A stretch of 64,000 nucleotides of DNA, taken from a virus. Position numbers and translations under genes: made by a program. A model generated the notes under the pieces. It saw nothing but the letters and a program-made list of their open reading frames with translations, did no database searches and was not told the origin of the DNA. The stretch lies in the IMG/VR virus record IMGVR_UViG_3300017971_000207, positions 1 through 64,000 of that record. One strand, 5' to 3'. Of the stretch, positions 3,001 to 33,492 are shown piece by piece. The stretch's first letter is position 1; every line of letters begins with the position of its first letter.

Positions 3001-4969
3001 GCGTCTTCAGCAGCATGCCGAGGATGTGCACGAAGGGCTGCAGGAACTCAGGCAGCAGCCCCTTGGCGCCAAGCGCATGCATGTCCGCAAACATACCCAG
3101 GAGCACCTTGGTGGGCCCCTGAGCACCCTTCATCGCCTTCTGCATCTGCCCCATGGTCTTGGTGGTGTTCTTGACGAAGGCTTGGCGCCCCTTCCCCATC
3201 GCGCGGAACGCTGTCTCAAACTGTTGCTCCGCCATCTCGAACGCCTCTTGCAGCGTCCGCCCCGCGCTAAAACCCTCCTTCTGCAGCTGCCCGAGAGATG
3301 CAGTCGAGTTCATCGTCGACGCCATCATCTTCATCGTGCCTTCATCTGCCTCCTGTAAGAAGCGGATGAAGGCGCTGGAGTCAAAACCCTCAACGCCTTC
3401 CAGACGCCCACGGATGAACTCCAAAGCCTGCCCTACATCCCCTCCGCTCTCCTTAGTAGCCTTGAGCAGCTGATAGAGGCCCTGCACCATCCCTGCTGGC
3501 CCGTGCTGCATGAGATCAAAGGTGTCGCCCATGTTAATACCCATATGGGCGAACCTCTGCATAAGCTCGGGGATGTCCTCAGCAGCAGCCACGCGCAGAT
3601 TCTGGAATTGCTTCTGGGCCGAAACCATCGACTTGGCCAAGCCCATTGCAACCTCTGGAGCCTCCTCCATCCTCCCCGTAGCCTTCGCCATCGCGGCGCC
3701 TAATGCTGCCGTCTGCTTTGCGAACGACGCCAACTGCTTCGGCTGCAGGTTCATCCCCATCAGCGCCGCCTTATCCGAGAGAGTCGTGATCATCTCGGGC
3801 AGCTTACCCAAGGACTCCCCCACATTACCCGATACACGCCCCATCTCAATAAAGGTGGCGGTCACCCCCTTTATGTCCTCCCCCGACATATGAAGCTTGT
3901 GCATCTGCTCCATCATGTGGGCGTATTGCTTAGCACTCAGCCCTGTAACATCCGCAAGCGCTGCTAGGTCCTTCGCTGACTTGATATTTGTGTGCCGAAG
4001 CATCTCCGCGCTCTTGCGCCAGCCGACGATCGCCTCGGTAGCCTCCCCGGCCCCGATATTCAAAGCGATCGCCATCCCCCCAGCCTGCTTGGTTACCGCG
4101 CGCAGCTCCTTTCCCGTGAGCCCTAGATTGACCGCCGTCTTCTTTGACTCCTTGGCCATCGCGACGCCCTGAGCCTCAAGACTGTTGGTCAGGTTGAGCG
4201 CATCGCCCTGCAGCGCCTGCAGCGATGATCGAAACTTGTCGAGGGTCCGAGAGGACAGGCCGCTGATAAACTCCCTTAGCTTGTTAACGTTGAGCGACTC
4301 CCCCATCTTGCGGATAGAGTCTCGGACAAAACCAAAGCCCCCCTGGATAGTGGTCAGCGTCTTCTCGATCTTCTCTCCGATCTGCTTAAAACGCTCAGCA
4401 TACTGGGAAAGCTTATCCGTCGACTCGTTCTGCTTCTCCGCGACATCCTCCGCCGCCTTCCCGACATCATCCAAAGCCTTCGTGGCAGGCTCGACCGACT
4501 TAACATACTTATCCCACAAGCTAGTCAGCCGCGAGGTAACAGGCTGTGCCGCCTCAAGGATCCCGCGAAAGCTCTCCCCCACCCCAGCTATGCGCCCTTT
4601 AACCGACTCGACCGCCGGCCCCAACGTCGCATCCCAGGCCATCGACACAGCCTTCATGCCGCTCTCGAACGTGTCCTCCAACGGCTTGAAGTGCTCACGC
4701 AGGCTATCCACACTAGCCGCAGCGTTCTCGTATTGGGCAGCAAACGAGCGGCTCCAGCGATCAACCGTGGCAGCCGTTCGGTCCATCTCCCCAATCACAC
4801 CATCCAACGCTTTATTGACACCAGCTGCAGCAGGCTGAGCAACCTTGTTGACCTCACCGATGCCCCGGACGATGCCCGTGAAGCCAGAGGTGACCGACTT
4901 CTGCATCTTCTCTAGCCCCATATCCTTGGCGCCGAAGGAAAATCCAAGCCCGAGGAAATTCAAACCCAT
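1..4969 (-). CDS. Tape measure protein (3' end beyond window)
   Basis: Hand translation from the ATG at 4969 gives MGLNFLGLGFSFGAKDMGLEKMQK. The segments I translated are Ala/Gly-rich and helical with periodic Trp. It lies downstream of the tail chaperone. It is absent from the ORF track, consistent with no stop before the window edge. Confidence 0.9.
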   Translation of the reverse strand, partial: MGLNFLGLGFSFGAKDMGLEKMQKSVTSGFTGIVRGIGEVNKVAQPAAAGVNKALDGVIGEMDRTAATVDRWSRSFAAQYENAAASVDSLREHFKPLEDTFESGMKAVSMAWDATLGPAVESVKGRIAGVGESFRGILEAAQPVTSRLTSLWDKYVKSVEPATKALDDVGKAAEDVAEKQNESTDKLSQYAERFKQIGEKIEKTLTTIQGGFGFVRDSIRKMGESLNVNKLREFISGLSSRTLDKFRSSLQALQGDALNLTNSLEAQGVAMAKESKKTAVNLGLTGKELRAVTKQAGGMAIALNIGAGEATEAIVGWRKSAEMLRHTNIKSAKDLAALADVTGLSAKQYAHMMEQMHKLHMSGEDIKGVTATFIEMGRVSGNVGESLGKLPEMITTLSDKAALMGMNLQPKQLASFAKQTAALGAAMAKATGRMEEAPEVAMGLAKSMVSAQKQFQNLRVAAAEDIPELMQRFAHMGINMGDTFDLMQHGPAGMVQGLYQLLKATKESGGDVGQALEFIRGRLEGVEGFDSSAFIRFLQEADEGTMKMMASTMNSTASLGQLQKEGFSAGRTLQEAFEMAEQQFETAFRAMGKGRQAFVKNTTKTMGQMQKAMKGAQGPTKVLLGMFADMHALGAKGLLPEFLQPFVHILGMLLKTLAPVGAGIGVLAVAFGPLGAVIGAAAVALTVFLSYLYKVKKSLGKGKTWGDAFNAIGEDVEKFAKKLPGEIDKAAKSIEGFAGEMEEAFKGVKWSKTWGSVLKSLKKSVLKLGAGFVRVAEAFWLGLTGQFDPKGPEGLKATSRVAAALGGAIVAAVKKLRGLVTTKLLPALVDLAKGVFAGLTKGFDPSSAEGASAAKKIGGAIGNAIKAGLGMAKEAAKNYFAEWWKGMTDLWADPSKSFKEKAAGTFKGASSGIIGAFALSAFLPIGKIIGGVISAIGGLVSAAVSLVANWGTVVVIAKAVGGALSTVISTIFSVKGAIIALVAALAALTAGFMLAPAKTEAFVEKAKKWLAGLGAWIVDKLAEWGPKIWNWFVTTVPDLIIKGVPMLLAALRKAVGALGEMVGSLLMGMLGKIRELIAKHLPEALPIFDGIVSALQTVQKVLGVVVDLIFDGLILGWNTFWTIAKPILSLWWKGFKFVLGVLWDVVIWVGTHLVKGFQAMWAVVGPVLTKMWENVKKAWAKMQEGPGIMDRLGVAFDKVWKAAKPVVDLLVLGFKVWWAITEPILSVFWEGIKVWWTVLKFVAGVIWDGLVVGFKALWVVVEPIWGVIKIGAVAVWKVLESIGNIIHRVLIIGWKLLAGAATAAWREIESAWNDLKTFFKVIWADLVAEAAAAWVFIQDKAIAVWEKHIKPVWEGIKGAFQAIFAALWGVIKPYWDPIEKALIDTWNVHVKPIWDGVKKFFKGVFGDVGSTVDTVISDIIGYFDNFNTKVDEVFDTIETWVDNLFGNSISTDIKADLDKAVGFFADTWKAIKATAGKLFKWFGTQWGLLKKAAVGMWKAAETKAQQALDGVKRIWTDSKKGLEDAFKTVQTAVENVFKKVKKTILGAFDFLVPKEGKKTLWDKLVGFFTTMFDPTKWEKELKPLVKKAIKFITDPLIDAWKLIKTTWEGAKTYFKEMFETIRDSLKKVLQEIADKIGKAMGPLVIVMENLKAAADK

Positions 4970-5004
4970 GACGCCCTCAAAGTTTCTGTGCTAGAGTTAG
5001 CTTT

Positions 5005-5787
5005 ATGCGGAAGTACCGTAGCACCCCCAAGCTTACAGAAAAACAAGTAGAAGAGATACGAAGAAGGGCCGCTGAAGGAGAGAAGGGTAAGGACCTTGCG
5101 GAGAAGTTTAGTATATCTCGTGGAGCCGTGTCCCTGATACTCCGAGGTCTCACCTGGCCAGACGTCCCTGGCCCGCTCAAGCGCGTCCGACCACGTACCC
5201 AAACCGACACGAAACGCGAACGTGTCGAGCTCTGGCGCCCTGTCCCTGGGTACGAAAACCTCTACAGTGCCTCGAACCTCGGCAACATCCGCATCGAGGT
5301 CACACGCCACAACATCCGCGCGGGTACACACCTCCGACAGACCCGCGACCGCGACGGCTACCTGACTGTCACCCTCACTGACACGAAGAGCCCCAGGGCA
5401 TGTCGCGTGTCGCTGCTGGTCCTCGCGGCCTTTGTCGGACCCCGCCCCGCGGGCCTGGAGACCAACCACAAGGACGGTGATCGTCAGAACAACGCGTTGA
5501 GCAACCTGGAATACGTAACCAAGGCTGAGAACATCAAACACGCTGTCGAGGTGCTCGGTAGTGACCGCAAGGGGATCAACAACCCTTCGGCGAAGCTTGG
5601 CGAGCCGGAGGTCTTGGAGCTGCGCCGCCGCGCGGCCACCGGCGAACCCTACACCACCCTTGGAAAAGCCTTCGGCATCACAAGCGTGATGGCCCGGAAG
5701 ATAGCCACCGGCGAGTGCTGGGAGCACGTGGGAGGCCCCCGGACAACCAAGCGCAAGCTGGGGCGGCCGCCCCAGAGGCACCCCTAA
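5005..5787 (+). CDS. Free-standing NUMOD4-HNH homing endonuclease with HTH domains
   Basis: NUMOD4 motif WRPVPGYENLYSASNLGNIR; HNH motif NHKDGDRQNNALSNLEYVTKAENIKH; flanking HTH-like segments. It is the only convincing plus-strand gene. Confidence 0.92.
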   Translation: MRKYRSTPKLTEKQVEEIRRRAAEGEKGKDLAEKFSISRGAVSLILRGLTWPDVPGPLKRVRPRTQTDTKRERVELWRPVPGYENLYSASNLGNIRIEVTRHNIRAGTHLRQTRDRDGYLTVTLTDTKSPRACRVSLLVLAAFVGPRPAGLETNHKDGDRQNNALSNLEYVTKAENIKHAVEVLGSDRKGINNPSAKLGEPEVLELRRRAATGEPYTTLGKAFGITSVMARKIATGECWEHVGGPRTTKRKLGRPPQRHP

Positions 5788-5790
5788 GCA

Positions 5791-5811
5791 TCCCAGGTTG
5801 TTTAAGGGCAT
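5791..5811 (-). pseudogene. Orphaned original 5' end of tape measure gene (MPLNNLG)
   Basis: Strong SD (GAGGTGA) precedes ATG CCC TTA AAC AAC CTG GGA; parallels the MGLNFLG start at 4969. Confidence 0.6.
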
Positions 5812-7997: not shown

Positions 7998-8219
7998 CTA
8001 CCTGCGCCGTCGGCGCAGCCGCTGGAGCTGCTCCTCTACACGCCGAAGCAGCTCCTCATCCTCCTCGTCTCCATCGGCATCGGGGTAGGAGGGAAAGGTA
8101 CGACGGAGGGGCGTCCCCAACGGGACCGTATAACCTCCAGCGCTACCCGACGTGGTCTGCTCATCACTCCGCTTTCCGCGGCCCAGAAGGGACAGTAAGG
8201 CGGCTTTTGCAATAGCCAT
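7998..8219 (-). CDS. Hypothetical protein
   Basis: 73-aa ORF in operon orientation filling the gap. Confidence 0.5.
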   Translation of the reverse strand: MAIAKAALLSLLGRGKRSDEQTTSGSAGGYTVPLGTPLRRTFPSYPDADGDEEDEELLRRVEEQLQRLRRRRR

Positions 8220-8281
8220 AGGCTCAGGGTACCCCAGAGCAGTAAGGACGTCTAGGAGGCGCCTAGGCGCCGAGACGACGC

Positions 8282-8995
8282 CTACCCACCAAGGGTGATC
8301 TCCTCAAACATATCAACCGCGAGCTCTAGCTCCGCGACATGGACAGCGGATGAGTCGCCAGCCATGTCGGTACCTGCCTTGTACCGGACGGGTATAGCCC
8401 CCTGCAGCACATAGGCCCGCGCAGGGACGCGAATAGCAAACTGAAAAGGGCCGACGTTGGTAGTAAGGGCTGTTGCGGCCGCCAGGCCCACCGAGGCAGC
8501 TACCCCTGCTGCCAGCTGGATGGGGTTGACCCCTCCAACACCCGCGGCCATCACCGCCAGCCCGGCCACCCCGCCCAGCTCCGTCACCGCTACCAGGGGG
8601 TTGTCACTTATCCCCGAGCTAGCAAAGAACTGGATGAGCATCAGCGTGCGCCGAGGCGTAGGACCGGCATCCCCAAGCCCAATGGGCGCAAACGACGTGC
8701 TCGTCATATCCCCCGAGATTGAGGCTATGATCCAGCGCCAAAAGTCGTTGTCGTAGAAGAACACCCCGCGGCTAAGAGTGATGTTGCCGATGCTCCCCCG
8801 CCTCACCACCTTACGCGTAAAGTACCAGTTGCCCTCGTTTACGTCCTGGGTCTCCAGCGATATCTCGGGCGCCGTTATCGCCGAGAAACCAAACAGAGGC
8901 GTAAGTATGGGCATACCCATCGTGTCGCTCGGCCCGACATCCATAAGCCAGAAGCAGTGGCTCTGTAAAGGATCACCGAATTTAGTCCTAGGCAT
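8282..8995 (-). CDS. Tail tube-like protein (gp19 family; possible tube initiator)
   Basis: GFSAITAPEI...EGN...NITLSRGV...FWRW and PVRYKAGTDMAGDSSAVHVAELEL motifs of T4 gp19-like tubes. Confidence 0.8.
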   Translation of the reverse strand: MPRTKFGDPLQSHCFWLMDVGPSDTMGMPILTPLFGFSAITAPEISLETQDVNEGNWYFTRKVVRRGSIGNITLSRGVFFYDNDFWRWIIASISGDMTSTSFAPIGLGDAGPTPRRTLMLIQFFASSGISDNPLVAVTELGGVAGLAVMAAGVGGVNPIQLAAGVAASVGLAAATALTTNVGPFQFAIRVPARAYVLQGAIPVRYKAGTDMAGDSSAVHVAELELAVDMFEEITLGG

Positions 8996-9848
8996 GTCTC
9001 TCCCTCAGCTCCACGAAACGCCAATACTTCCGACCTCCCCGGATGCTACTAGGAACACCACCCCATAGCCACCTACCCAAGCCCACCGCTTGTGACCCAT
9101 ACACCCCAACCACGTATACCGGAGGCCCTCCTGGGCGCCGCACGGCCTCTTGTAGATTCCCACGCGTCCCTGTCACCTCCCGAACCACTCGCAAAAGCTC
9201 CTCCATGAACAGCCTACTGGCCGATGTCGCACGAAGCGTCACCCTCCTCTGGCCATTTGCGGTGCTCTCACTCACACACCCATCCGCCTCCCAGAAACCC
9301 CGCACGAAGTGAGACCTCAGCCCAGAGGGGAGGCTTCCGGGCCACCGCATGTCGTGAGTCTTAGCAGGCCCCAACCCAAAAACCTCCAAAGACTGCGCGA
9401 AGCGCACATTGTGAAAACGCACGGCATGGCAGCCCCCCGTTAAACACCTAATGCGGTGGTCCGCACCAAGGACGGCACAGACCTTCTCACACACATCCAG
9501 GTCTCCCGCCAGCTCCACCCCGTAGACCCGCCCCTTACGTCGACACACACAACCGTCGCCGTAAAGAAGACCGAGAACCCAGGCCCCGGCTGGTGTAAGA
9601 GCCCCTCGGAAGTAGCCCTCGTTCATGTGGTAGCGCCGTCGCCGGTCCCCGTCCCGAGAGGCATTGCGAGCCCCCGTGCGATACGCACGCCGAAGCCCCG
9701 CACTCTTCGAAAGCTTTATCCCCGCTGCACGGGCCCACGACCGCACAGCCCCAGCCGACGCCCCCACGGAGGCCGCCACCTCCACGGGAAAGCCTCCCTC
9801 CTGCAGCAACCGCACCGCCTGCTCCCTAACCTCGACAGGATAGCCCAT
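8988..9848 (-). CDS. Free-standing LAGLIDADG endonuclease (intein/DOD type) with N-terminal HTH
   Basis: AWVLGLLYGDG and FVRGFWEADG motifs; no Hint splicing motifs. Likely start is ATG 9848, just after a promoter (track start 9869). Confidence 0.88.
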   Translation of the reverse strand: MGYPVEVREQAVRLLQEGGFPVEVAASVGASAGAVRSWARAAGIKLSKSAGLRRAYRTGARNASRDGDRRRRYHMNEGYFRGALTPAGAWVLGLLYGDGCVCRRKGRVYGVELAGDLDVCEKVCAVLGADHRIRCLTGGCHAVRFHNVRFAQSLEVFGLGPAKTHDMRWPGSLPSGLRSHFVRGFWEADGCVSESTANGQRRVTLRATSASRLFMEELLRVVREVTGTRGNLQEAVRRPGGPPVYVVGVYGSQAVGLGRWLWGGVPSSIRGGRKYWRFVELRERHA

Positions 9849-9853
9849 AGCCA

Positions 9854-9882
9854 ACTGTAACGTGGCCACTACCCTGTATCAA
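9854..9882 (-). promoter_or_regulatory. Sigma70-like promoter for the LAGLIDADG gene (leaderless)
   Basis: TTGATA-17 nt-TACAGT, 5 nt before the ATG. Confidence 0.55.
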
Positions 9883-9885
9883 CAT

Positions 9886-9936
9886 CTAAGGGCCAACATG
9901 AGCTTGTAACGGGTCCCCAAACTTCGTCCTGGGCAT
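9886..9936 (-). pseudogene. Orphaned duplicate 5' end of tube-like gene (MPRTKFGDPLQAHVGP*)
   Basis: First 11 residues are identical to the N-terminus of 8282..8995, with synonymous changes; GAGGAG lies just upstream. Confidence 0.85.
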
Positions 9937-10017
9937 AGCTCCTCGACGTTCAAACGCGTAAGAGGCCACCAGCGCGAGGCGCAGGTAGCCTCACGACCGG
10001 ACACACATTGACCCCGC

Positions 10018-10044
10018 TAACGCTGCGACTACGCCGCAGCGTTA
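10018..10044 (-). terminator. Stem-loop over tail tube stop codon
   Basis: TAACGCTGCG-7 nt-CGCAGCGTTA, a perfect 10-bp stem; no clear U-tract. Confidence 0.35.
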
Positions 10045-10610
10045 CCCCGCACCGTCATACGCTCGACGGTTATGGTCATCTCAGCAACTGCGATGTCGCT
10101 GGAGGTTGCATCCAGGTCAGAGGAGGGCTTGCAGGAGGACGGAAAGCAATTCCACAGCTGGTATTGCTTCGCCCCTACCAAGGAGTCCACGTCAACCACC
10201 GTCGTCCCCACAGACGGTAGGTAATCACTGCGGTGGTAGTGGTTGATAGTCACATCCCCGCGGTAATTAGCCCCCACCGCCGCCTCGGAGCCCTCAACGC
10301 ATGAGAGGGCCCAATCCCACATAGCCGTATCCAGCCGAACCACGCCCCGGCTGAGAGTGCAATCACCCACCGTGGGGTTGCCGGGGAACTTCATCGGGTA
10401 GATGTACGTGCCCTCCTTATACTCGACGGCCTCGATCGAGATATCCGGAATAGAGCAGGCTGTGAAGCCCGCCTGCGGACGTGCCTGGGTCCCTGCAGGC
10501 TCCTCGGGACCGCTCCGCGTGCCGGGGACAAGTGGGTCCACCTGCTCTGAGTTGGCCACGGTCACGTGGAACCGCATATTGTGTAGGAAGTCTGATGATG
10601 CTGGTCGCAT
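10029..10610 (-). CDS. Major tail tube protein (T4 gp19-like)
   Basis: AGFTACSIPDISIEAVEYKEG...KFPG...TLSRGV...WDW...LWNCFPS...DLDATSSDIAVAEMTI. Confidence 0.9.
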   Translation of the reverse strand: MRPASSDFLHNMRFHVTVANSEQVDPLVPGTRSGPEEPAGTQARPQAGFTACSIPDISIEAVEYKEGTYIYPMKFPGNPTVGDCTLSRGVVRLDTAMWDWALSCVEGSEAAVGANYRGDVTINHYHRSDYLPSVGTTVVDVDSLVGAKQYQLWNCFPSSCKPSSDLDATSSDIAVAEMTITVERMTVRGNAAA

Positions 10611-10698
10611 GTGTTCTCTCCTATTTCCCGAGTCTACCTCAGAGGTAGAGTAAGCGGTAGTCTAACCGGCCTCTGCGACCCGCACCAGATCTAAGACC

Positions 10699-11310
10699 CT
10701 ACAGCTCGGGACGGATGGTAAGCACAAGCTCACCCCCCACTCCGTCGTCGGAGCGGCGCACGAAAAGGCCCTTCGTAGGCCCCGGTGTAGCAATTGCTGT
10801 AGCTATCTCCACATTAGGTGAGCGCCCGATAGCGGCCGCTGTGGTCGAAGCTAGTAGAGTACCAGCACCGCCTGGCTCATCCCTTACCTCGACCGATGCT
10901 GCTCCCACGGCCACCGCAATGTACGCCACCATGTCCAGAACCCGCATCTTAAACGGAAGGGCCCCCACCGGGTAAACCTCCACATCGTCAGGAGCACCCC
11001 CACCACCCGCAGCAAAAGCCTTGTAGATCACCGCAAGACCCGCCACAGGCACCGCCGGGTCCACCGGCGCAAGGTCTCCTGCCTCCACCGAGGCAGGAGG
11101 TGCCTGCAGGCCCGACCCCACCTCATCAGCATCATAGGCGACCGAGAGCGTCACCTTGCCCGCAGCCATTGCGGCCTGAAGCGACCGCATCGCAGACAGC
11201 TCGGAGGCCGCTCGCTCGATCTCCTTCGATTCACCAACCGCAATAGAGGTGTACAGGTCCCGAAGATACACGTCCTCCGTGGACACGTTCGTGATGTTCA
11301 ACGTCGCCAT
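10699..11310 (-). CDS. Virion structural/decoration protein
   Basis: Ala/Val/Gly beta-rich; N-terminal domain paralogous to 12306..12656. Confidence 0.55.
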   Translation of the reverse strand: MATLNITNVSTEDVYLRDLYTSIAVGESKEIERAASELSAMRSLQAAMAAGKVTLSVAYDADEVGSGLQAPPASVEAGDLAPVDPAVPVAGLAVIYKAFAAGGGGAPDDVEVYPVGALPFKMRVLDMVAYIAVAVGAASVEVRDEPGGAGTLLASTTAAAIGRSPNVEIATAIATPGPTKGLFVRRSDDGVGGELVLTIRPEL

Positions 11311-11385
11311 GTTTGTCCCGTCGTCCTTTCTACAACCCTCGTCCTATCATAAACCCTACCTCACTGTCGAGGTAGAGTACACCCA

Positions 11386-12264
11386 CTAGGACAGAGTATG
11401 CGAATGCGCTGTCTGCGTAGGCGTCATTGAATAGCGGTAAAAGAAGTCGTAGACATGCGCACCGTTAGGAGCCGTCGTGGGATTGATACTCTTAGCAGTA
11501 GTATCTACACCTGCGACTGTCTCATCCGCCGCATCTACCACGGTCTTTGCAACAGCAAATGATGCGGCGGCTAAGGGCACGGGCATACCTAACGCAGAGC
11601 CTACTCCCACACTAACCAGGTCGGCCCCAGTTGCACCAGCCAACCCAACAATGGTCGCCGATGTGATCGTCGCATAGGCATAGGTGGTATCCTTGGTAGC
11701 CGTTCCCCCAGTAAGGTCCACCGACTCATTGATGGCATCCCCACCAGCCCCCACTCCAACGATATCCAAAGTCCCTGCGGTTACGGAGGCATCTGCGTCA
11801 ACGATGTCCACCTGCAGCTTTCGAGGGTAGTCCGGCTGTCCCGCAAGTACCTGAGCCCCATCGGCCATTGCTACCTGCGCTACAATGCTCACCAGCTCAG
11901 CTGCTATAGGCGCATCAATGTGAGCCGGACTAGCCATCAACAACGGTTGGTTGACTGCCGTCTGGTTATCCACTGCGAGCGCATCAGAACCACCAGCCGC
12001 ATGCGTCGACTTGTGCAATCCGGGTGCAGGACCCTCAACAGTAAGGGTACCTACTGCATACTCGGGATCGCTAGTCCACTCATACACAAGCGTACCTGCA
12101 CGCTGGGCCTCCAACGCCGTGTAATCAGGCCCTGTGAGCCCTCTAAGCTCCGACGTCACGTCAACCCGAGTTGGCGGGGTAGTGCTCGCAGGAATTGTCC
12201 GAGCAGGATTACCAGCAGCAAGAACCACCGGCGCACCCGTTAAATTGTAAACATAAAGTGCCAT
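11386..12264 (-). CDS. Virion structural protein (fibre/decoration-like)
   Basis: Thr/Ala/Gly-rich; HKSTHAAGGSD fibre-type motif. Confidence 0.55.
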   Translation of the reverse strand: MALYVYNLTGAPVVLAAGNPARTIPASTTPPTRVDVTSELRGLTGPDYTALEAQRAGTLVYEWTSDPEYAVGTLTVEGPAPGLHKSTHAAGGSDALAVDNQTAVNQPLLMASPAHIDAPIAAELVSIVAQVAMADGAQVLAGQPDYPRKLQVDIVDADASVTAGTLDIVGVGAGGDAINESVDLTGGTATKDTTYAYATITSATIVGLAGATGADLVSVGVGSALGMPVPLAAASFAVAKTVVDAADETVAGVDTTAKSINPTTAPNGAHVYDFFYRYSMTPTQTAHSHTLS

Positions 12265-12305
12265 ATCGCCCCTTTGTTAGCTCTAGGTTAGAGTTAGACC
12301 CCAGC

Positions 12306-12656
12306 CTAAGTGATGACGCCTGCCGCGTCCCGCCAATTCGTGCCGTCAGTCCAGTTGAGGGCCTGGTCGTCAGTGTTCCAGATGGCCGAGTAGATCGGGA
12401 AGGCTGATGCAGCAGGGCGCCCTACGTTGCTATAGGCACCCACCACGTGCCCACCACCAAAGCCGCCATCGTCGCCCGTCTCCGTGGCAAAGGTCAAAGT
12501 GATGTCCCCTGCAATGATCTTCTTGTTTAGCTCCAGGTCTCCCCGAAGATCCTCTAACGTCCGCGAAGCCGTCACAGACTCCCCAGCATCCAGCTGCTTG
12601 TACAGCTGGCTGATGAAGGTCTGCGTGCTACCTGCGTTGGTGAAGGTTACTAGCAT
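12306..12656 (-). CDS. Virion structural protein
   Basis: C-terminal RPA...IWNTD...WTDGTNWRDAAG fibre/decoration motif. Confidence 0.55.
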   Translation of the reverse strand: MLVTFTNAGSTQTFISQLYKQLDAGESVTASRTLEDLRGDLELNKKIIAGDITLTFATETGDDGGFGGGHVVGAYSNVGRPAASAFPIYSAIWNTDDQALNWTDGTNWRDAAGVIT

Positions 12657-29328: not shown

Positions 29329-32300
29329 CTAGCCCTGAGAAGATCTAGTCAGCTCTTGAACGAGCCCTCTTAACTGCTTTAGCGAACGCCGTAGCACCTC
29401 ATCACCCTGAAGCAAACGATCCAGCTTATCTCCTGCCCGACGCTCTGCCGCCCGACCCCCACCCGCCAGAAGCTGCTGCTCCAACGAGGGGGTCCGAGAG
29501 CTGTGCAAACTACGGCCGGCTCGCCGGTGCTTACCGTTACCGTTAGAGGGGGCCTTAAGCGCCGGTTGATCGGCTCCCTCCATAGGAGCTTCCAACGCCG
29601 CCGCAGCGGCATCTGCCTTAGCGGACCACACGGTCTCGTCCCTAACGTCTGACTCGCGCTGCTGGTAGATGAGCTTGATAGCGTCGTCGCTGAGGTCGAA
29701 GACCTCCTTGTAGATCCACTCTAGCGAGACGAACTCCCTCATCCGCGAAGCGAGGTCTGCCTGAGCGTTCCGGACCTCCAGCTGCGCTAGCTCATAGATC
29801 GAGCTAGGCACCGTCATGTGCACCTCGTAGTCGTACGCTTGAGGGTCCATCCCCAGCGCCGCCATGTGCACCCGACAGACCTTCCCGAGCCCATTGCGCA
29901 GCTCGCGCTGGATACGAAGGACCGTCCGAGCAAACCTAACGTCCTCGCTGCTCAGCACCGCTCGGGCCGTGTTATCGTCCTGCTGCAGATACGCTTTCGG
30001 GATCTTGATGGCCGAGAACATCTTCCCCTGGAAGTACTCAATGTCATCCATATGCTGCCACTGAGGGCCCGAGAGAACATCGATCCGGGTCCCCTCCTGC
30101 CCCTGCCGCGTAGGCAAGAAGAAGTCCTCATCCTGGCTCAAAGCGTCAAAGCTGAAGTCCAGCTTGCCCGTGGTCGGATTGACAAAGCGGCGCTTCTTGT
30201 ACTGCTGACGGACCCGGTTCACATAGGCCAGCGCCTCGGCCGGCGGGAGGTTGCCTACGTCGACGTAAAAGGCGAAACGCTCCGGCGCCCGCGTAAGCCG
30301 GTACAGCAACGCCGAATCCTCCAGCAGCATAAGCCGCTTCCATATCCAGCGAGCCGCCTCCAACACAGAATTGTGCACCACCAACCCATCAGCAACGAAG
30401 TTGTGCTCTCTGTCAGCCACCTCGATGTCGTAGACGAGCTCTTCTCCATCGGGCTCGATACTGACCACCTCCTCGGACGCAAAGTCCCCAGCAGCAAGCG
30501 GTGCCTCACGAAAGTAGAGCTGGTAGGACGGCCCCGTGTTTATCTCACGCCCTCCAATAACTGGGCGCTCCTCCCGTTTACGAGATCGAATGTTACCAGA
30601 GGTCCACCCTAGCCCATCTACCAGATTCTTCAGGTCTCTGAGCAACGCCTCATTGCACAGCTCTATGTGAAAGTAGGGTTCCGGTCCTTGATGCGTCTCC
30701 CAGCCATCCGCATCGACGAATCCCCTCACGAACTCCGCGCGCAGCTCCTCCGGTAGCACAAACACCCACGAAGGCACACGCTTGTGGTGAGCCCCTCCAA
30801 CCCAACCGAAGCGCTGAAACACCTCAGCAAGAACGCGGCTGTGAACCGTACAGCTGCCTCCGGACCGAGAGGAACCAAGACCCATCTCGTCGAACATACG
30901 CTCGTAACGCGCATTGATGGCATCGTGCTCGCCAAGAGCAAAGCCGACCTCGTTATCCCTAACCCAGCCATCCCCCAACATGAACCCGAACAGTCGGCAG
31001 AACGAGGCATCTACAAAGTCCGACAGCCTAGGGATCTTGTGAGCACCGTCATAGGACCTAACCGTGTAGGACCCATCAAAAAGAGGGAGACCCAGCGATG
31101 AAAAAAGATCGCGCAACAACGACTTAGGTACAGAGGACCTACCTTCTAACAGATCCTCTAGAGTACCCCTAGACACCCCAACCGACGATGCCTTGGCGCG
31201 CAAACCCTCATCACGAGGTCCGTAGGCAGAACGCCGTACAAATGAACGCAGCGCCGCTGCCCCCCGAGGCGTCAGCGTTACCCGACACGTCTCAGTGTCC
31301 TCACTCAGGAGAATACCCAACGGCTGCGCCCCCGACAGGTAGGGCTGACGCGCTGCGGCAACAAGCCTATCTCCCGGCTTCACCTCGGACACGGGCAACC
31401 AAGCGTTCTGATTACCCTTCCGAGCCCCCTCCACCAACACCGGATGATTCGCAGTCAACCGCAACGACCTGTGCTTCGTCGAGAGACGGTACACCGGCTT
31501 AGACCCATTACACACGTGATCTAGAACCTTAGTAGTCCGCAGCATTCCAGCATGCCGCGAAAACACTCGATCTCCGGGAACGACATCTCGTATCTCGACT
31601 AGACCCCTTGTCGTCCAGACCCTGGATTCCCCTGTTAAACAGCTCCCATACACGCTGCGGCGATGCTTACCACGCAGACGGAAGTGCACCACCTCCCAAT
31701 CCTCTAGAGCAGCTAGCTGCTCATCCTGATTGCCCCCGTCCATCTGATGCTGCTTCGAATACTCCTGCGCAATCAGCGCGGTACGGGTGGCCAAGATCTG
31801 CCGAAAATCCTCGGGTGAGTTGTGAACAACCACCCCATCTGCCACGAAGTTATGAGCATCGTCCTCAACCTCCAGATCAAAAACCTCCTCGTCACCATGG
31901 TAGGACACCTCTAGCACCGTCTCAGCCACCAAAGGCTCCGCGAAGCGCTCGTCGGTAAAGGATACCGTATAGCAAGGCTGCTGCGTCTGAATGACCTTCC
32001 CTTTGACCACCGTGCCCGGCTCGCGCGTGCGTGAGGAGATGTTCCCACAGACGTAGCCCAAACCGTCGATCAAGTTCTTGAGGTCCCGCGCAAGGTCGTA
32101 GTTGGCTATCTCAAAGAAGTGCCGAAGCTTCCGACGGGGTTGCTTGTTGACCCACCCATCCGCGTCCAAGAACCCTCGCAAAAACGCCTCTCGGTGGTCT
32201 TCAGGCAGCGTGTAGACCCACGCGGGTACTCGCTTCTTATCAAACCCATCAATCCACCCTAAAGCCGGCAGCAGGCGCCAGAGCTGGACGGAGCACACAA

Positions 32301-33492
32301 CGGTCTCCTCGCCCACCACCGCACCATCGGACCGAACCTGCTTTACCCTAGGGTCGAGCCCCAAAGCTGCTAGAAGATTGTCGTACAGCTCGTTCTGCTC
32401 CGGGTATTCTCCACGAGCATAGGCCACTCGGCCCTCCGCCTCTGACTTCGACCGCCACCCATCTCCCAGCAGAAACCCTAGTAGACGGCAGAAGCCCGCT
32501 GACGGCCTCTCAGGGAGCTGTAGCTGACGCGGGGTGCCCTGGTCCCCCCAAGGCACCTCAAACGGGCTCTCGGCCCACAGGGACGACCACTCAGGAATCT
32601 CTCCCGCAGGCATCCGCGTACTCACAACAATCTTTGATGTCCGAGAGTAATCAATGTTCCGCTTCTTGCCGCGGTACCTAACAATCCGCAGGTCCTTCAC
32701 CCGAACCCACTCCCGCGACCCGTCGAGCCTCTGGGCCAACACCGGGTGATCTTCCGTCAGAAAGACCTCGCGGTGTCTTGTGCGGACCTTGTAAACCTTC
32801 TTGGTGCCGTTGACGTGAAGCTGTTTGACAGGCAGAAGAGCAGGCTTACCGTCGCTGCACCCCAGCACGGAGCCGCGCTCGAAGGCTTGAATCTCCGTCA
32901 GACCACGGTCGGTCCAAACGCGTGAGCCGTGTGCGAGGCAATACCCAAAACGCCCTTTGAAGTCCTGGATGAACCCGTAAAGCTCCCCACGCGGCCCCTC
33001 AATACGCCGCACAGTCGGAGGAGGTAGGTAGTTAAAACCCACCACGCCGTCAGCCGTCACCAGCAGCTCCTCGAAGTCATTACCGTACTTGATCAGCGTC
33101 CGAGCTATCTCCCATATCTCCTCATCCAAGCGCAGTTGCTTGTTGAGCAGATCGTTGAGCATGTTGGCGATGTTCTGGTTTGACGACGTGACCCACACCG
33201 TACGATTCAGCTGCGTGTCGGGCTGCGTGCTATCATCCGCAAAGACGTCGATGGCCGCCGACAGCTCAGGATAATCATCCATCTCCTCATAGTCGGCATA
33301 GCGAGACAGCAGATCTTGCTCCAGGCGCAGGTAGTCCGCGAGGACCTCGTAGCCATACGCTTGCAGAATGTCATAGCCGCTGCCGGGGTAGCCCGCCGCC
33401 GTGGCACCTTTCGCGAGCTGGACCGCAACCTGCTCCTTGTCCTTGGTCCACGCCTGGCGAATGCGATTGGCTATGTTGCTAAAGAACCCCAC
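29329..33492 (-). CDS. Portal protein (T4 gp20-like) with two inteins; about 589 aa spliced
   Basis: YEEMDDYPELSAAID, LEDSALLYRLTRAPERFAFYVDVGNLP, EDFFLP and DDIEYF motifs. Confidence 0.95.
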   Translation of the reverse strand: MGFFSNIANRIRQAWTKDKEQVAVQLAKGATAAGYPGSGYDILQAYGYEVLADYLRLEQDLLSRYADYEEMDDYPELSAAIDVFADDSTQPDTQLNRTVWVTSSNQNIANMLNDLLNKQLRLDEEIWEIARTLIKYGNDFEELLVTADGVVGFNYLPPPTVRRIEGPRGELYGFIQDFKGRFGYCLAHGSRVWTDRGLTEIQAFERGSVLGCSDGKPALLPVKQLHVNGTKKVYKVRTRHREVFLTEDHPVLAQRLDGSREWVRVKDLRIVRYRGKKRNIDYSRTSKIVVSTRMPAGEIPEWSSLWAESPFEVPWGDQGTPRQLQLPERPSAGFCRLLGFLLGDGWRSKSEAEGRVAYARGEYPEQNELYDNLLAALGLDPRVKQVRSDGAVVGEETVVCSVQLWRLLPALGWIDGFDKKRVPAWVYTLPEDHREAFLRGFLDADGWVNKQPRRKLRHFFEIANYDLARDLKNLIDGLGYVCGNISSRTREPGTVVKGKVIQTQQPCYTVSFTDERFAEPLVAETVLEVSYHGDEEVFDLEVEDDAHNFVADGVVVHNSPEDFRQILATRTALIAQEYSKQHQMDGGNQDEQLAALEDWEVVHFRLRGKHRRSVYGSCLTGESRVWTTRGLVEIRDVVPGDRVFSRHAGMLRTTKVLDHVCNGSKPVYRLSTKHRSLRLTANHPVLVEGARKGNQNAWLPVSEVKPGDRLVAAARQPYLSGAQPLGILLSEDTETCRVTLTPRGAAALRSFVRRSAYGPRDEGLRAKASSVGVSRGTLEDLLEGRSSVPKSLLRDLFSSLGLPLFDGSYTVRSYDGAHKIPRLSDFVDASFCRLFGFMLGDGWVRDNEVGFALGEHDAINARYERMFDEMGLGSSRSGGSCTVHSRVLAEVFQRFGWVGGAHHKRVPSWVFVLPEELRAEFVRGFVDADGWETHQGPEPYFHIELCNEALLRDLKNLVDGLGWTSGNIRSRKREERPVIGGREINTGPSYQLYFREAPLAAGDFASEEVVSIEPDGEELVYDIEVADREHNFVADGLVVHNSVLEAARWIWKRLMLLEDSALLYRLTRAPERFAFYVDVGNLPPAEALAYVNRVRQQYKKRRFVNPTTGKLDFSFDALSQDEDFFLPTRQGQEGTRIDVLSGPQWQHMDDIEYFQGKMFSAIKIPKAYLQQDDNTARAVLSSEDVRFARTVLRIQRELRNGLGKVCRVHMAALGMDPQAYDYEVHMTVPSSIYELAQLEVRNAQADLASRMREFVSLEWIYKEVFDLSDDAIKLIYQQRESDVRDETVWSAKADAAAAALEAPMEGADQPALKAPSNGNGKHRRAGRSLHSSRTPSLEQQLLAGGGRAAERRAGDKLDRLLQGDEVLRRSLKQLRGLVQELTRSSQG
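30370..31641 (-). mobile_element. Portal intein 2 (424 aa, in-frame LAGLIDADG)
   Basis: YGS|CLTGESRV...TANHPV...GFMLGDG...FVRGFVDADG...VVHN|S. Confidence 0.95.
31819..32940 (-). mobile_element. Portal intein 1 (374 aa, in-frame LAGLIDADG)
   Basis: FGY|CLAHGSRV...TEDHPV...GFLLGDG...FLRGFLDADG...VVHN|S. Confidence 0.95.

What the first reader, a model, noticed from the sequence alone, without database searches (positions are those of the whole stretch)
8957..9936. LAGLIDADG gene splits a tail-tube gene start and supplies a synonymously recoded replacement
Seen: upstream of the nuclease is a mini-ORF ATG CCC AGG ACG AAG TTT GGG GAC CCG TTA CAA GCT CAT (MPRTKFGDPLQAH...). Downstream, the intact gene starts ATG CCT AGG ACT AAA TTC GGT GAT CCT TTA CAG AGC CAC (MPRTKFGDPLQSH). 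Eight of the ten codons after Met differ only at the third position, and the new start overlaps the nuclease stop. Inference: this is a splicing-free way to invade an essential gene. The element inserts about 13 codons in and carries a cleavage-resistant recoded 5' end plus a translation start.
Basis: partly seen in the sequence, partly recalled or inferred. Interest (0 to 1): 0.8.

Follow-up and report, generated by a model that had tools for sequence, protein, structure and literature searches.

The report
Homing nuclease that replaces a gene start
A selfish DNA-cutting enzyme gene sits about 13 codons inside an essential tail-tube gene of an uncultured phage and keeps the gene working by bringing a differently spelled copy of those 13 codons with its own start signal; the same design recurs in at least five other uncultured phages.

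Summary
On the minus strand, a 13-codon stub of the second gp19-like tail-tube gene (9936-9898) keeps its ribosome-binding site. It is followed by a two-motif LAGLIDADG nuclease gene (9848-8988) and then the intact tube gene (8995-8282). The tube ATG overlaps the nuclease stop by 8 bases. Stub and new start differ at 9 synonymous codons and 1 amino acid.

The layout recurs. All seven nearest nuclease homologues whose contigs I fetched lie between the same two tube genes. Two more turned up in a tube-gene scan, and one further locus holds a decayed copy. Five other lineages carry a stub plus a replacement start. Across the six lineages, 47 of 64 comparable codons differ synonymously and only 6 codons change the amino acid. 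None of about 55 nuclease-free relatives has a second copy of the start.

No ribozyme or intein features were found, and one stub contains a stop codon, so splicing is unlikely.

The closest described parallel is the mobile endonuclease ORFs of fungal mitochondria, which replace gene 3' ends. I found no published phage or 5'-end case. Earlier notes of this scan report similar cassettes in other phage genes.

Cleavage specificity, and whether the respelling was selected, remain untested.

The parts
10029..10610 (-). First gp19-like tail-tube gene (193 aa), upstream neighbour
   Evidence: Pfam Phage_T4_gp19 E=1.5e-18. The same gene precedes the second tube gene in all relatives.
9939..9944 (-). 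Native ribosome-binding site of the second tube gene, now serving only the stub
   Evidence: Read directly. The nuclease-free relative L006 has a comparable site at the same distance before its start.
9898..9936 (-). Stub: the native first 13 codons of the second tube gene
   Evidence: 12 of 13 residues equal the functional start. It is closer than the functional copy to the nuclease-free relative L006 (26 against 21 of 36 bases). At the 9 differing codons its codon choices are about 9-fold more typical of this genome (own arithmetic on the frequencies).
9886..9897 (-). Left edge of the inserted cassette: three unrelated codons and the TAG that ends the 16-codon stub ORF
   Evidence: Homology to the tube gene does not extend past codon 13 (local alignment against shuffles, p=0.85).
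9854..9882 (-). Promoter-like site (TTGATA, 17 bases, TACAGT) ending 6 bases before the nuclease ATG. It suggests a short-leader or leaderless nuclease transcript.
   Evidence: It is the only hit of the consensus scan in 8000-12400 (by itself no more than chance, since shuffles give 1.5 such hits). Similar hexamer pairs sit at the same place in L014 and L031. This is an inference, not shown.
8988..9848 (-). Free-standing homing endonuclease gene (286 aa): N-terminal helix-turn-helix region plus a two-motif LAGLIDADG core
   Evidence: Pfam LAGLIDADG_3 E=3.9e-9. Both motifs and their acidic residues are conserved in homologues. The AlphaFold model has pLDDT 94.8, and its best structural matches are I-Tsp061I, I-AniI, PI-SceI, PI-PfuI and I-OnuI.
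9000..9006 (-). New ribosome-binding site for the tube gene, embedded in the last codons of the nuclease gene
   Evidence: Read directly. A purine-rich site lies at the same place in L014, L031, L034 and L035.
8957..8995 (-). Replacement first 13 codons of the tube gene, synonymously different from the stub. Right edge of the cassette.
   Evidence: The N-terminus is functionally constrained: R3, L10 and F15 are invariant and D8, Q11, W16, L17 and D19 nearly so in 48 homologues.
8282..8995 (-). Functional second gp19-like tail-tube gene (237 aa)
   Evidence: Pfam Phage_T4_gp19 E=4.9e-11. There are 95 homologues of similar length.

Best explanation
**What it is.** A 941-base mobile cassette (9897-8957, minus strand) is inserted after codon 13 of the phage's second tail-tube gene. 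It holds three things:
- a short leader with a promoter-like site;
- a free-standing monomeric LAGLIDADG homing endonuclease gene;
- at its right end, a ribosome-binding site and a replacement copy of codons 1-13 that joins in frame to the rest of the tube gene.

The tube protein is therefore made from the new start without any splicing. The original ribosome-binding site and 13 codons are left upstream as a dead 16-codon mini-ORF.

**How it most likely works (inferred).**
- The nuclease cuts the uninterrupted allele of related phages near codons 12-16, next to the most conserved N-terminal motif.
- In a mixed infection the break is repaired from the cassette-bearing genome. The stub and upstream DNA serve as the left homology arm and the gene body as the right arm, so the cassette is copied in.
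- The respelled codons keep the carrier's own gene from being cut. They probably also keep the two 39-base copies from recombining, which would delete or bypass the nuclease.

**Shown:** the anatomy, the enzyme family, the presence/absence pattern, the recurrence in other lineages, and saturated synonymous divergence with conserved protein sequence.

**Inferred:** the cleavage site, immunity of the new copy, the use of the stub as a homology arm, the nuclease promoter, and that the respelling was selected.
For: **Anatomy and enzyme**
- Anatomy.
- Enzyme family: Pfam hit; both motifs conserved; model with pLDDT 94.8 matching solved LAGLIDADG enzymes.

**Same site in other lineages**
- All seven nearest nuclease homologues whose contigs I fetched lie between the two tube genes: L014/15, L016, L031/32, L033, L034, L035/36.
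- L075 and L078 came from a tube-gene scan of IMG/VR.

**Stub and replacement pairs**
- Pairs occur in WIN, L014, L034, L035, L075 and L078. Of 64 same-residue degenerate codons, 47 differ synonymously, and only 6 codons differ in residue.
- For the first four lineages: 33 of 42 codons differ synonymously, against 13 of 33 in natural pairs with at most one residue difference (p=0.0008). Residue differences are 4 of 47, against 441 of 936 between lineages (p=3e-8).
- The duplicate start occurs only with the nuclease: 5 of 5 loci plus the window, against 0 of about 55.

**Signs of a mobile element**
- Occupancy is patchy: 2 of 78 IMG/VR relatives.
- L029/L030 carry an internally deleted copy.
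- L031 has only a decayed fragment of a stub.

**Details that fit the model**
- The stub resembles the nuclease-free relative more than the new copy does.
- The new copy differs from the stub at 3-5 of the 9-12 bases just left of the junction in four lineages.
- In L035 the stub is fused in frame to the nuclease and supplies its start.
Against: - There is no experiment. The target site is inferred only from where the stubs end.
- The nearest nuclease-free relative is only 73% identical in the tube protein, so an exact empty site was not recovered.
- Stub-less forms exist (L016, L033, L029), with the nuclease lying between the genes and the tube gene keeping its own ribosome-binding site. The duplication is therefore not obligatory for this nuclease family.
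- In L078 the stub runs to about codon 22, so the junction is not uniform.
- Synonymous divergence (0.79) is not significantly above the saturation level seen between unrelated lineages (0.67; binomial p=0.07). A long-lived diverged allele cannot be excluded as the source.
- The promoter-like site is a single consensus match.
Confidence: 0.8

Rival explanations
1. **Scar of faulty homing; the different spelling is incidental.** The nuclease normally lives between the two tube genes and cuts inside the downstream gene. In a cross between diverged phages, the right end of the break was repaired by homology. The unresected left end was joined illegitimately to donor DNA upstream of the nuclease. 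That left the recipient's first 13 codons as a stub and imported the donor's allele. The synonymous differences are then ordinary donor/recipient divergence, not an evolved feature.
For: - Intergenic, stub-less forms of the same nuclease exist: L016, L033, L029.
- Synonymous divergence is at, and not clearly above, the saturation level.
- Natural pairs with one or two residue differences can still differ at about half of their codons.
- Nuclease and tube-protein identities are uncorrelated (rho 0.16), as expected if the element moves between lineages.
Against: - In all six lineages the two copies share lineage-specific residues that the nearest relatives lack. For the window, no other start among 95 homologues is as close. 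A donor would have to be a near-sibling in protein yet saturated at silent sites, six times over.
- The junction falls at codons 12-14 in four lineages.
- The cassette's left leader is partly conserved. This suggests a propagating unit rather than repeated independent accidents.
Confidence: 0.12
2. **Group I intron or intein.** The stub is exon 1 (or the N-extein) and is joined to the gene body by RNA or protein splicing. The downstream copy is irrelevant.
For: LAGLIDADG enzymes are typically intron- or intein-encoded. The nearest matches among cultured phages are intron-encoded endonucleases of Staphylococcus phages.
Against: - No Rfam hit at E<=10 across 8200-10700, and none at gathering score in nine related loci.
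- Only about 49 non-coding bases lie on the left and none on the right.
- The stub ORF ends in a stop and is out of frame with the nuclease. The L014 stub has an internal stop.
- The downstream copy keeps the protein sequence through many silent changes in six lineages, and it has its own ribosome-binding site and start. It is therefore translated.
- No intein splicing blocks are present.
Confidence: 0.03
3. **Domesticated, no longer mobile.** The nuclease-like protein now acts as a DNA-binding regulator of the tail operon, and the stub mini-ORF is kept as a translational leader controlling it.
For: - An N-terminal helix-turn-helix region is present.
- Stubs are well preserved.
- In L035 the stub provides the nuclease's start.
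Against: - The protein is present in only 2 of 78 related IMG/VR loci.
- Decayed copies occur.
- Both catalytic motifs are conserved.
- Stub-less and stop-containing stub variants exist.
Confidence: 0.04

Closest known systems
Mobile endonuclease ORFs (mORFs) of fungal mitochondria that create hybrid genes. Examples are Allomyces macrogynus atp6 and Glomus sp. atp6, atp9, cox2 and nad3 (PMC3630166, read).
   Same: A free-standing LAGLIDADG (or GIY-YIG) endonuclease ORF is inserted near one end of a protein-coding gene. It brings a replacement copy of that gene end. The native end is left as a displaced duplicate, and no intron or intein is needed.
   Different: - There the 3' end is replaced, so no translation start has to be supplied. 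Here the 5' end is replaced, and the cassette carries a ribosome-binding site and an ATG that overlaps the nuclease stop.
- There the inserted end is visibly foreign and is read as horizontal transfer. Here it encodes the same lineage-specific peptide as the stub and differs almost only at silent sites.
- The host is a bacteriophage structural gene, not a mitochondrial respiratory gene.
Free-standing homing endonucleases of T4-like phages and 'intronless homing': SegB, SegF, SegG and MobE, and mobE or mobA splitting nrdA or gene 39/60 (PMC2988022 read; PMC2330249 and PMC2790892 listed).
   Same: A phage-borne free-standing nuclease gene lies next to or inside the gene it targets, spreads by break repair with co-conversion of flanking DNA, and has patchy presence among relatives. 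That the carrier is protected by sequence differences at the target comes from my knowledge of SegF and SegG, not from the passages read.
   Different: Those elements sit between genes, or split a gene into two polypeptides that reassemble. The review contains no mention of duplication. They belong to the GIY-YIG or HNH families, not LAGLIDADG.
Intron- and intein-encoded LAGLIDADG homing endonucleases (I-AniI, I-OnuI, PI-SceI, PI-PfuI, I-Tsp061I)
   Same: Same enzyme fold, with two motifs in one chain. The enzyme targets a conserved coding stretch of an essential gene.
   Different: There is no ribozyme and no intein around it. It has an extra N-terminal helix-turn-helix region. Harmlessness to the host gene is achieved by duplication and replacement instead of splicing.
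Engineered homing gene drives with a recoded rescue copy of the target gene (PMC7609566 and PMC7935863, listed)
   Same: The design logic is the same: cut an essential gene, insert into it, and carry a cleavage-resistant recoded piece that restores function.
   Different: Those are synthetic and Cas9-guided, in insects. This is an analogy of logic only, not of ancestry.

Membership tests
LAGLIDADG homing endonuclease (enzyme family) | One or two LAGLIDADG motifs, each with a conserved acidic residue at the end of the motif helix | tested here: met
   There are two motifs, with Asp98 and Asp189 in the 286-aa numbering. Asp189 is invariant and Asp98 at least 90% conserved in 42 homologues. Pfam LAGLIDADG_3 scores 37.1 bits against a cut-off of 22.5.
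LAGLIDADG homing endonuclease (enzyme family) | Alpha-beta-beta-alpha-beta-beta-alpha fold, duplicated in monomeric enzymes | tested here: met
   The AlphaFold model has pLDDT 94.8 and pTM 0.80. Foldseek top hits are all LAGLIDADG enzymes, with probability 1.00 and E down to 1.8e-7.
LAGLIDADG homing endonuclease (enzyme family) | Site-specific double-strand cleavage of a long (about 20 bp) target | not testable with these tools
   Needs expression of the protein and a cleavage assay.
Mobile homing endonuclease gene | Presence/absence polymorphism at one homologous site among related genomes | tested here: met
   Present in the window, L014/15, L016, L031/32, L033, L034, L035/36, L075 and L078. 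Absent in L006-13, L026, L028 and 76 of 78 IMG/VR relatives.
Mobile homing endonuclease gene | Life-cycle signs: degenerate copies at the same site | tested here: met
   L029/L030 retain only the helix-turn-helix head and the C-terminal tail of the gene. The intact relative is P0103 in L033.
Gene-end-replacing endonuclease cassette (mORF-like) | Endonuclease ORF inside a gene, flanked by a displaced native gene end and a functional replacement end | tested here: met
   The duplicate is found only where the nuclease is present.
Gene-end-replacing endonuclease cassette (mORF-like) | The replacement end is foreign (acquired with the element from another lineage) | tested here: inconclusive
   Silent sites are as diverged as between unrelated lineages (0.73-0.79 against 0.67). 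Yet the peptide is lineage-specific and nearly identical to the stub. Functional starts of different cassette-bearing lineages share no common haplotype.
Gene-end-replacing endonuclease cassette (mORF-like) | The replacement end is expressed as part of the host protein | not testable with these tools
   Inferred from the ribosome-binding site, the in-frame join and the purifying selection on the peptide. Needs RNA or protein data.
Group I intron | Conserved ribozyme core flanking or containing the ORF | tested here: not met
   No Rfam match at E<=10 in 8200-10700, and none at gathering score in nine related loci. Only about 49 non-coding bases are available.
Intein | In-frame insertion with N- and C-terminal splicing blocks and no stop codons | tested here: not met
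   The stub ORF ends in TAG, the nuclease is in another frame and has its own stop, and the tube gene restarts at an ATG.

The most novel reading that the evidence does not exclude
The cassette is a natural 'home-and-rescue' drive with three interdependent, selected parts.
- The nuclease cuts the native spelling of codons about 10-17.
- The stub is kept, and renewed at each homing event, because it is the left homology arm and in some lineages the nuclease's own translation start.
- The replacement start is actively driven to maximal silent divergence. This keeps the carrier from being cut and stops repair from bypassing the nuclease.

An extension concerns the cassette-associated lineages that have a one-base insertion or deletion exactly at codon 14/15 (L078, L029/30, L033). 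There, immunity would come from the indel, and the tube protein would be made by ribosomal frameshifting.
Probability: 0.3. Interest if true: 0.8.

Novelty: new variant of a known kind. Interest (0 to 1): 0.62.

Why it matters
Homing endonucleases are thought to enter essential genes safely only inside self-splicing introns or inteins. Otherwise they stay between genes, or split a gene into pieces that still assemble.

This family shows a fourth route in phages. The element enters the coding sequence near the start and carries its own translation start plus a respelled copy of the displaced codons. The replacement copy encodes the same peptide as the stub in six deeply diverged lineages, while the silent sites are saturated. 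That makes it a natural test case for two questions:
- whether selfish elements select for synonymous recoding;
- how natural 'cut and rescue' designs, now being engineered as gene drives, evolve and decay.

There is also a practical point for annotation. Such loci produce a spurious mini-ORF and an apparently overlapping gene pair that are easy to misread.

Tried and rejected
- **Close relatives by single-protein or DNA search.** Scans of IMG/VR with the tube protein and with the nuclease found nothing. blastn and tblastn against 50,697 cultured phage records found no relative of the tube gene. The genome collection gave only one small MAG contig. The clade is uncultured.
- **A longer stub.** By eye the spacer looked like decayed codons 15-28. 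Local alignments against shuffles were not significant for WIN, L014, L034, L031 or L075 (p=0.25-0.94). Only L078 extends, to about codon 22. Rejected for the window.
- **A shared 'immune' haplotype travelling with the nuclease.** WIN and L034 share 25 of 27 bases in codons 11-19. Several unrelated pairs do as well, and other cassette pairs are average. Not supported.
- **Co-divergence of nuclease and tube protein.** No correlation (rho 0.16, p=0.36). Uninformative at this depth.
- **Respelling to open up the new translation start.** Folding energies of the two starts are alike (-13.7 against -14.0 kcal/mol, both less folded than shuffles). Not supported.
- **Synonymous divergence above saturation.** Only marginal (p=0.07).
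- It was rewritten with coordinates only.
- **Literature.** Eight searches found no phage description of a 5'-end-replacing endonuclease cassette.
Full report
**1. Observation**

The window is the first 64 kb of a 145-kb IMG/VR virus record, estimated 64% complete and about 60% G+C. All features lie on the minus strand.

- The first gp19-like tube gene runs 10610-10029.
- After a 92-base spacer come a strong ribosome-binding site (9944-9939) and an ATG at 9936.
- Thirteen codons follow (to 9898), then three unrelated codons and a TAG (9888-9886).
- A 286-aa ORF runs from ATG 9848 to TAG 8990-8988.
- The second gp19-like tube gene runs 8995-8282. Its ATG overlaps the end of the 286-aa ORF by 8 bases.

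Codons 2-13 of the stub and of the intact gene differ at 9 codons synonymously and at one codon by Ala to Ser. Two codons are identical, so 12 of 36 bases differ.

**2. The nuclease**

- Pfam gives LAGLIDADG_3 (E=3.9e-9).
- Alignment with homologues shows an N-terminal helix-turn-helix region and two LAGLIDADG motifs with conserved Asp residues.
- The AlphaFold model is confident (pLDDT 94.8).
- Its best structural matches are all LAGLIDADG homing enzymes: I-Tsp061I, I-AniI, PI-SceI, PI-PfuI and I-OnuI.
- The homologues align from the Met-Gly-Tyr start, so ATG 9848 is the likely start.
- A promoter-like pair of hexamers ends 6 bases before it (9882-9854). Comparable pairs sit at the same place in L014 and L031. 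The nuclease may therefore have its own short-leader transcript. This is inference only.

**3. Relatives without the nuclease**

- The tube protein has 95 homologues of similar length.
- The closest is 73% identical and occurs on four contigs, L006-L009. There the two tube genes are separated by 80 bases, with no nuclease and no second start.
- More distant relatives (L010, L011-13, L026, L028) look the same.
- A scan of IMG/VR with an alignment of tube proteins returned 78 loci. Only two carry the nuclease upstream.
- In 63 loci where the start could be recognised, an upstream look-alike of the locus's own N-terminus occurred only in the nuclease-bearing loci. That is 5 of 5 plus the window, against none of about 55.
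- L006 matches the stub better than the new copy: 26 against 21 of 36 bases. The last two codons are identical to the stub's.
- At the nine differing codons, the stub's choices are about nine times more typical of this genome (my arithmetic on the frequencies).

**4. Relatives with the nuclease**

A search of 1.84 billion representative proteins found 23 homologues at E<1e-30. Every one of the seven nearest whose contig I fetched lies between the two tube genes of a myovirus tail module.

| Locus | What is there |
|---|---|
| L014/L015 | 14-codon stub with an internal stop, a 49-base spacer, then the nuclease overlapping a respelled start |
| L034 | 12-codon stub; 10 of 11 codons differ, all silently |
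| L035/L036 | Stub fused in frame to the nuclease, supplying its start |
| L075, L078 (IMG/VR) | Stubs of about 12 and about 22 codons |
| L031/L032 | Only a decayed piece of a stub |
| L016, L033 | No stub; the tube gene has its own ribosome-binding site after the nuclease stop |
| L029/L030 | No stub; an internally deleted, dead copy of the nuclease |

More distant homologues (22-31% identical: L017, L018, L019) are free-standing genes at other intergenic sites. This is therefore a family of free-standing phage homing endonucleases, and one clade of it specialises on the start of this tube gene.

**5. The respelling**

- Over six lineages, 47 of 64 same-residue degenerate codons differ, and only 6 codons differ in residue.
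- For the first four lineages the synonymous fraction is 33/42 = 0.79. Unrelated lineages show 0.67 in the same codons, which is the saturation level. Natural pairs with at most one residue difference show 0.39 (p=0.0008).
- Residue differences are 4 of 47, against 441 of 936 between lineages (p=3e-8).
- The two copies in one genome are therefore as different at silent sites as unrelated phages. Yet they share the lineage-specific peptide. The window's start has no equally close match among 95 homologues.
- A dead stub drifting for as long as the silent sites suggest would have lost the peptide. So either the stub is young or renewed and the new copy comes from a long-separate allele of the same population, or silent changes in the new copy were selected.
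- I favour selection, for immunity to the nuclease and against recombination between the two 39-base repeats. The excess over saturation is only marginal (p=0.07), so I mark this as inferred.
- The new copy differs from the stub at 3-5 of the 9-12 bases just left of the junction in four lineages. From general knowledge of LAGLIDADG specificity, that is enough to block cleavage.

**6. Splicing, inteins, artefact**

- No Rfam family matches 8200-10700 even at E<=10, and none matches nine related loci at gathering score.
- There are about 49 non-coding bases on the left of the nuclease gene and none on the right.
- The stub ORF ends in a stop and is out of frame with the nuclease. The L014 stub contains a stop.
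- The downstream copy has a ribosome-binding site and start, and it is under purifying selection.
- An assembly artefact is excluded by recurrence in independent samples and lineages.

**7. Mechanism**

The cassette (9897-8957) is best read as a mobile unit of leader, nuclease and replacement start. The steps below are inferred.

- The nuclease cuts uninterrupted alleles near codons 12-16, beside the nearly invariant Phe-Trp-Leu motif.
- Repair uses the stub side and the gene body as homology arms.
- The carrier's own gene is protected by the respelled codons.

The stub-less intergenic forms suggest how the duplication could first have arisen. A break repaired by homology on the right, with an illegitimate join on the left, would produce it. 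This is the main rival reading if the spelling differences are incidental.

**8. Comparison and novelty**

- The closest described systems are the mobile endonuclease ORFs of fungal mitochondria. They insert near the 3' end of atp6, atp9, cox2 or nad3 and bring a replacement C-terminus (PMC3630166).
- This case is the mirror image: the 5' end is replaced, which requires supplying a translation start. It occurs in a phage, and the replacement is silent-only.
- The review of T4-type free-standing endonucleases describes split genes and contains no mention of duplication (PMC2988022).
- Eight literature searches found no phage description.
- Earlier notes of this scan report similar cassettes in other phage genes (gp10, gp6 and others). 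One note reports a possible second case in this same genome at the tape-measure start. I partly checked that one. An HNH_3/NUMOD4 gene lies antisense at 5005-5787, between a 7-codon look-alike start at 5811 and the real start at 4969.
- I class the finding as a new variant of a known kind.

**9. Unresolved**

- The cleavage site and immunity of the new copy.
- Whether the silent divergence was selected.
- Why three cassette-associated lineages (L078, L029/30, L033) carry a one-base insertion or deletion at codon 14/15 of the tube gene. The count is 3 of 10 such lineages, against 0 of 52 nuclease-free loci (p=0.003).

Noticed in passing
L078:2458-2520 and 1511-1575; L029:2885-2935 (also L030); L033:1844-1895: The second tube gene has a one-base insertion (L078, in both the stub and the functional copy) or a one-base deletion (L029/L030, L033) exactly at codon 14/15, next to the inferred nuclease target. 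This was seen in 3 of 10 nuclease-associated lineages and 0 of 52 nuclease-free loci (p=0.003). In L029 the site reads as a classical -1 slippery heptamer. In L078 the body frame has no start codon before Met18. Possible readings are frameshift-dependent expression, an immunity indel, or dead genes.
   Followed up: partly
L029:2571-2858 (also L030): An internally deleted relic of the same nuclease lies between the two tube genes. It consists of the helix-turn-helix head joined to the C-terminal tail, with no start codon. Its intact counterpart is P0103 in L033.
   Followed up: partly
L035:2429-3292: The 12-codon stub of the tube gene is fused in frame to the nuclease, which has lost its own first 10 or so codons. 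The nuclease is therefore translated from the tube gene's original ribosome-binding site and ATG.
   Followed up: partly
window 4960-5811: There may be a second start-replacement case in this genome. An HNH_3/NUMOD4 endonuclease gene lies on the plus strand (5005-5787), between a ribosome-binding site plus a 7-codon look-alike start at 5811 (minus strand) and the start of the long tape-measure-like gene at 4969. Five of 7 residues are shared, and four codons differ silently. L026 has an HNH_3/NUMOD4 gene antisense at the equivalent place. The match is too short to be sure, and another note of this scan covers it.
   Followed up: partly
window 30583-32484 (minus strand): A 1388-codon open frame contains two weak matches to the LAGLIDADG nuclease (E about 1e-4). 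These are probably intein-borne endonuclease domains in a large gene.
   Followed up: no
L077, L097, L099, L103, L107-L113 (match 2501 to about 3550): In about ten IMG/VR relatives the tube-gene match spans about 1050 bases instead of about 710. The gene therefore carries an extra segment of about 340 bases, either an inserted domain or an intervening sequence.
   Followed up: no
P0105, P0106, P0107, P0109, P0111, P0115: A subgroup of the nuclease family (350-371 aa) has a second copy of the helix-turn-helix region at the C-terminus.
   Followed up: no
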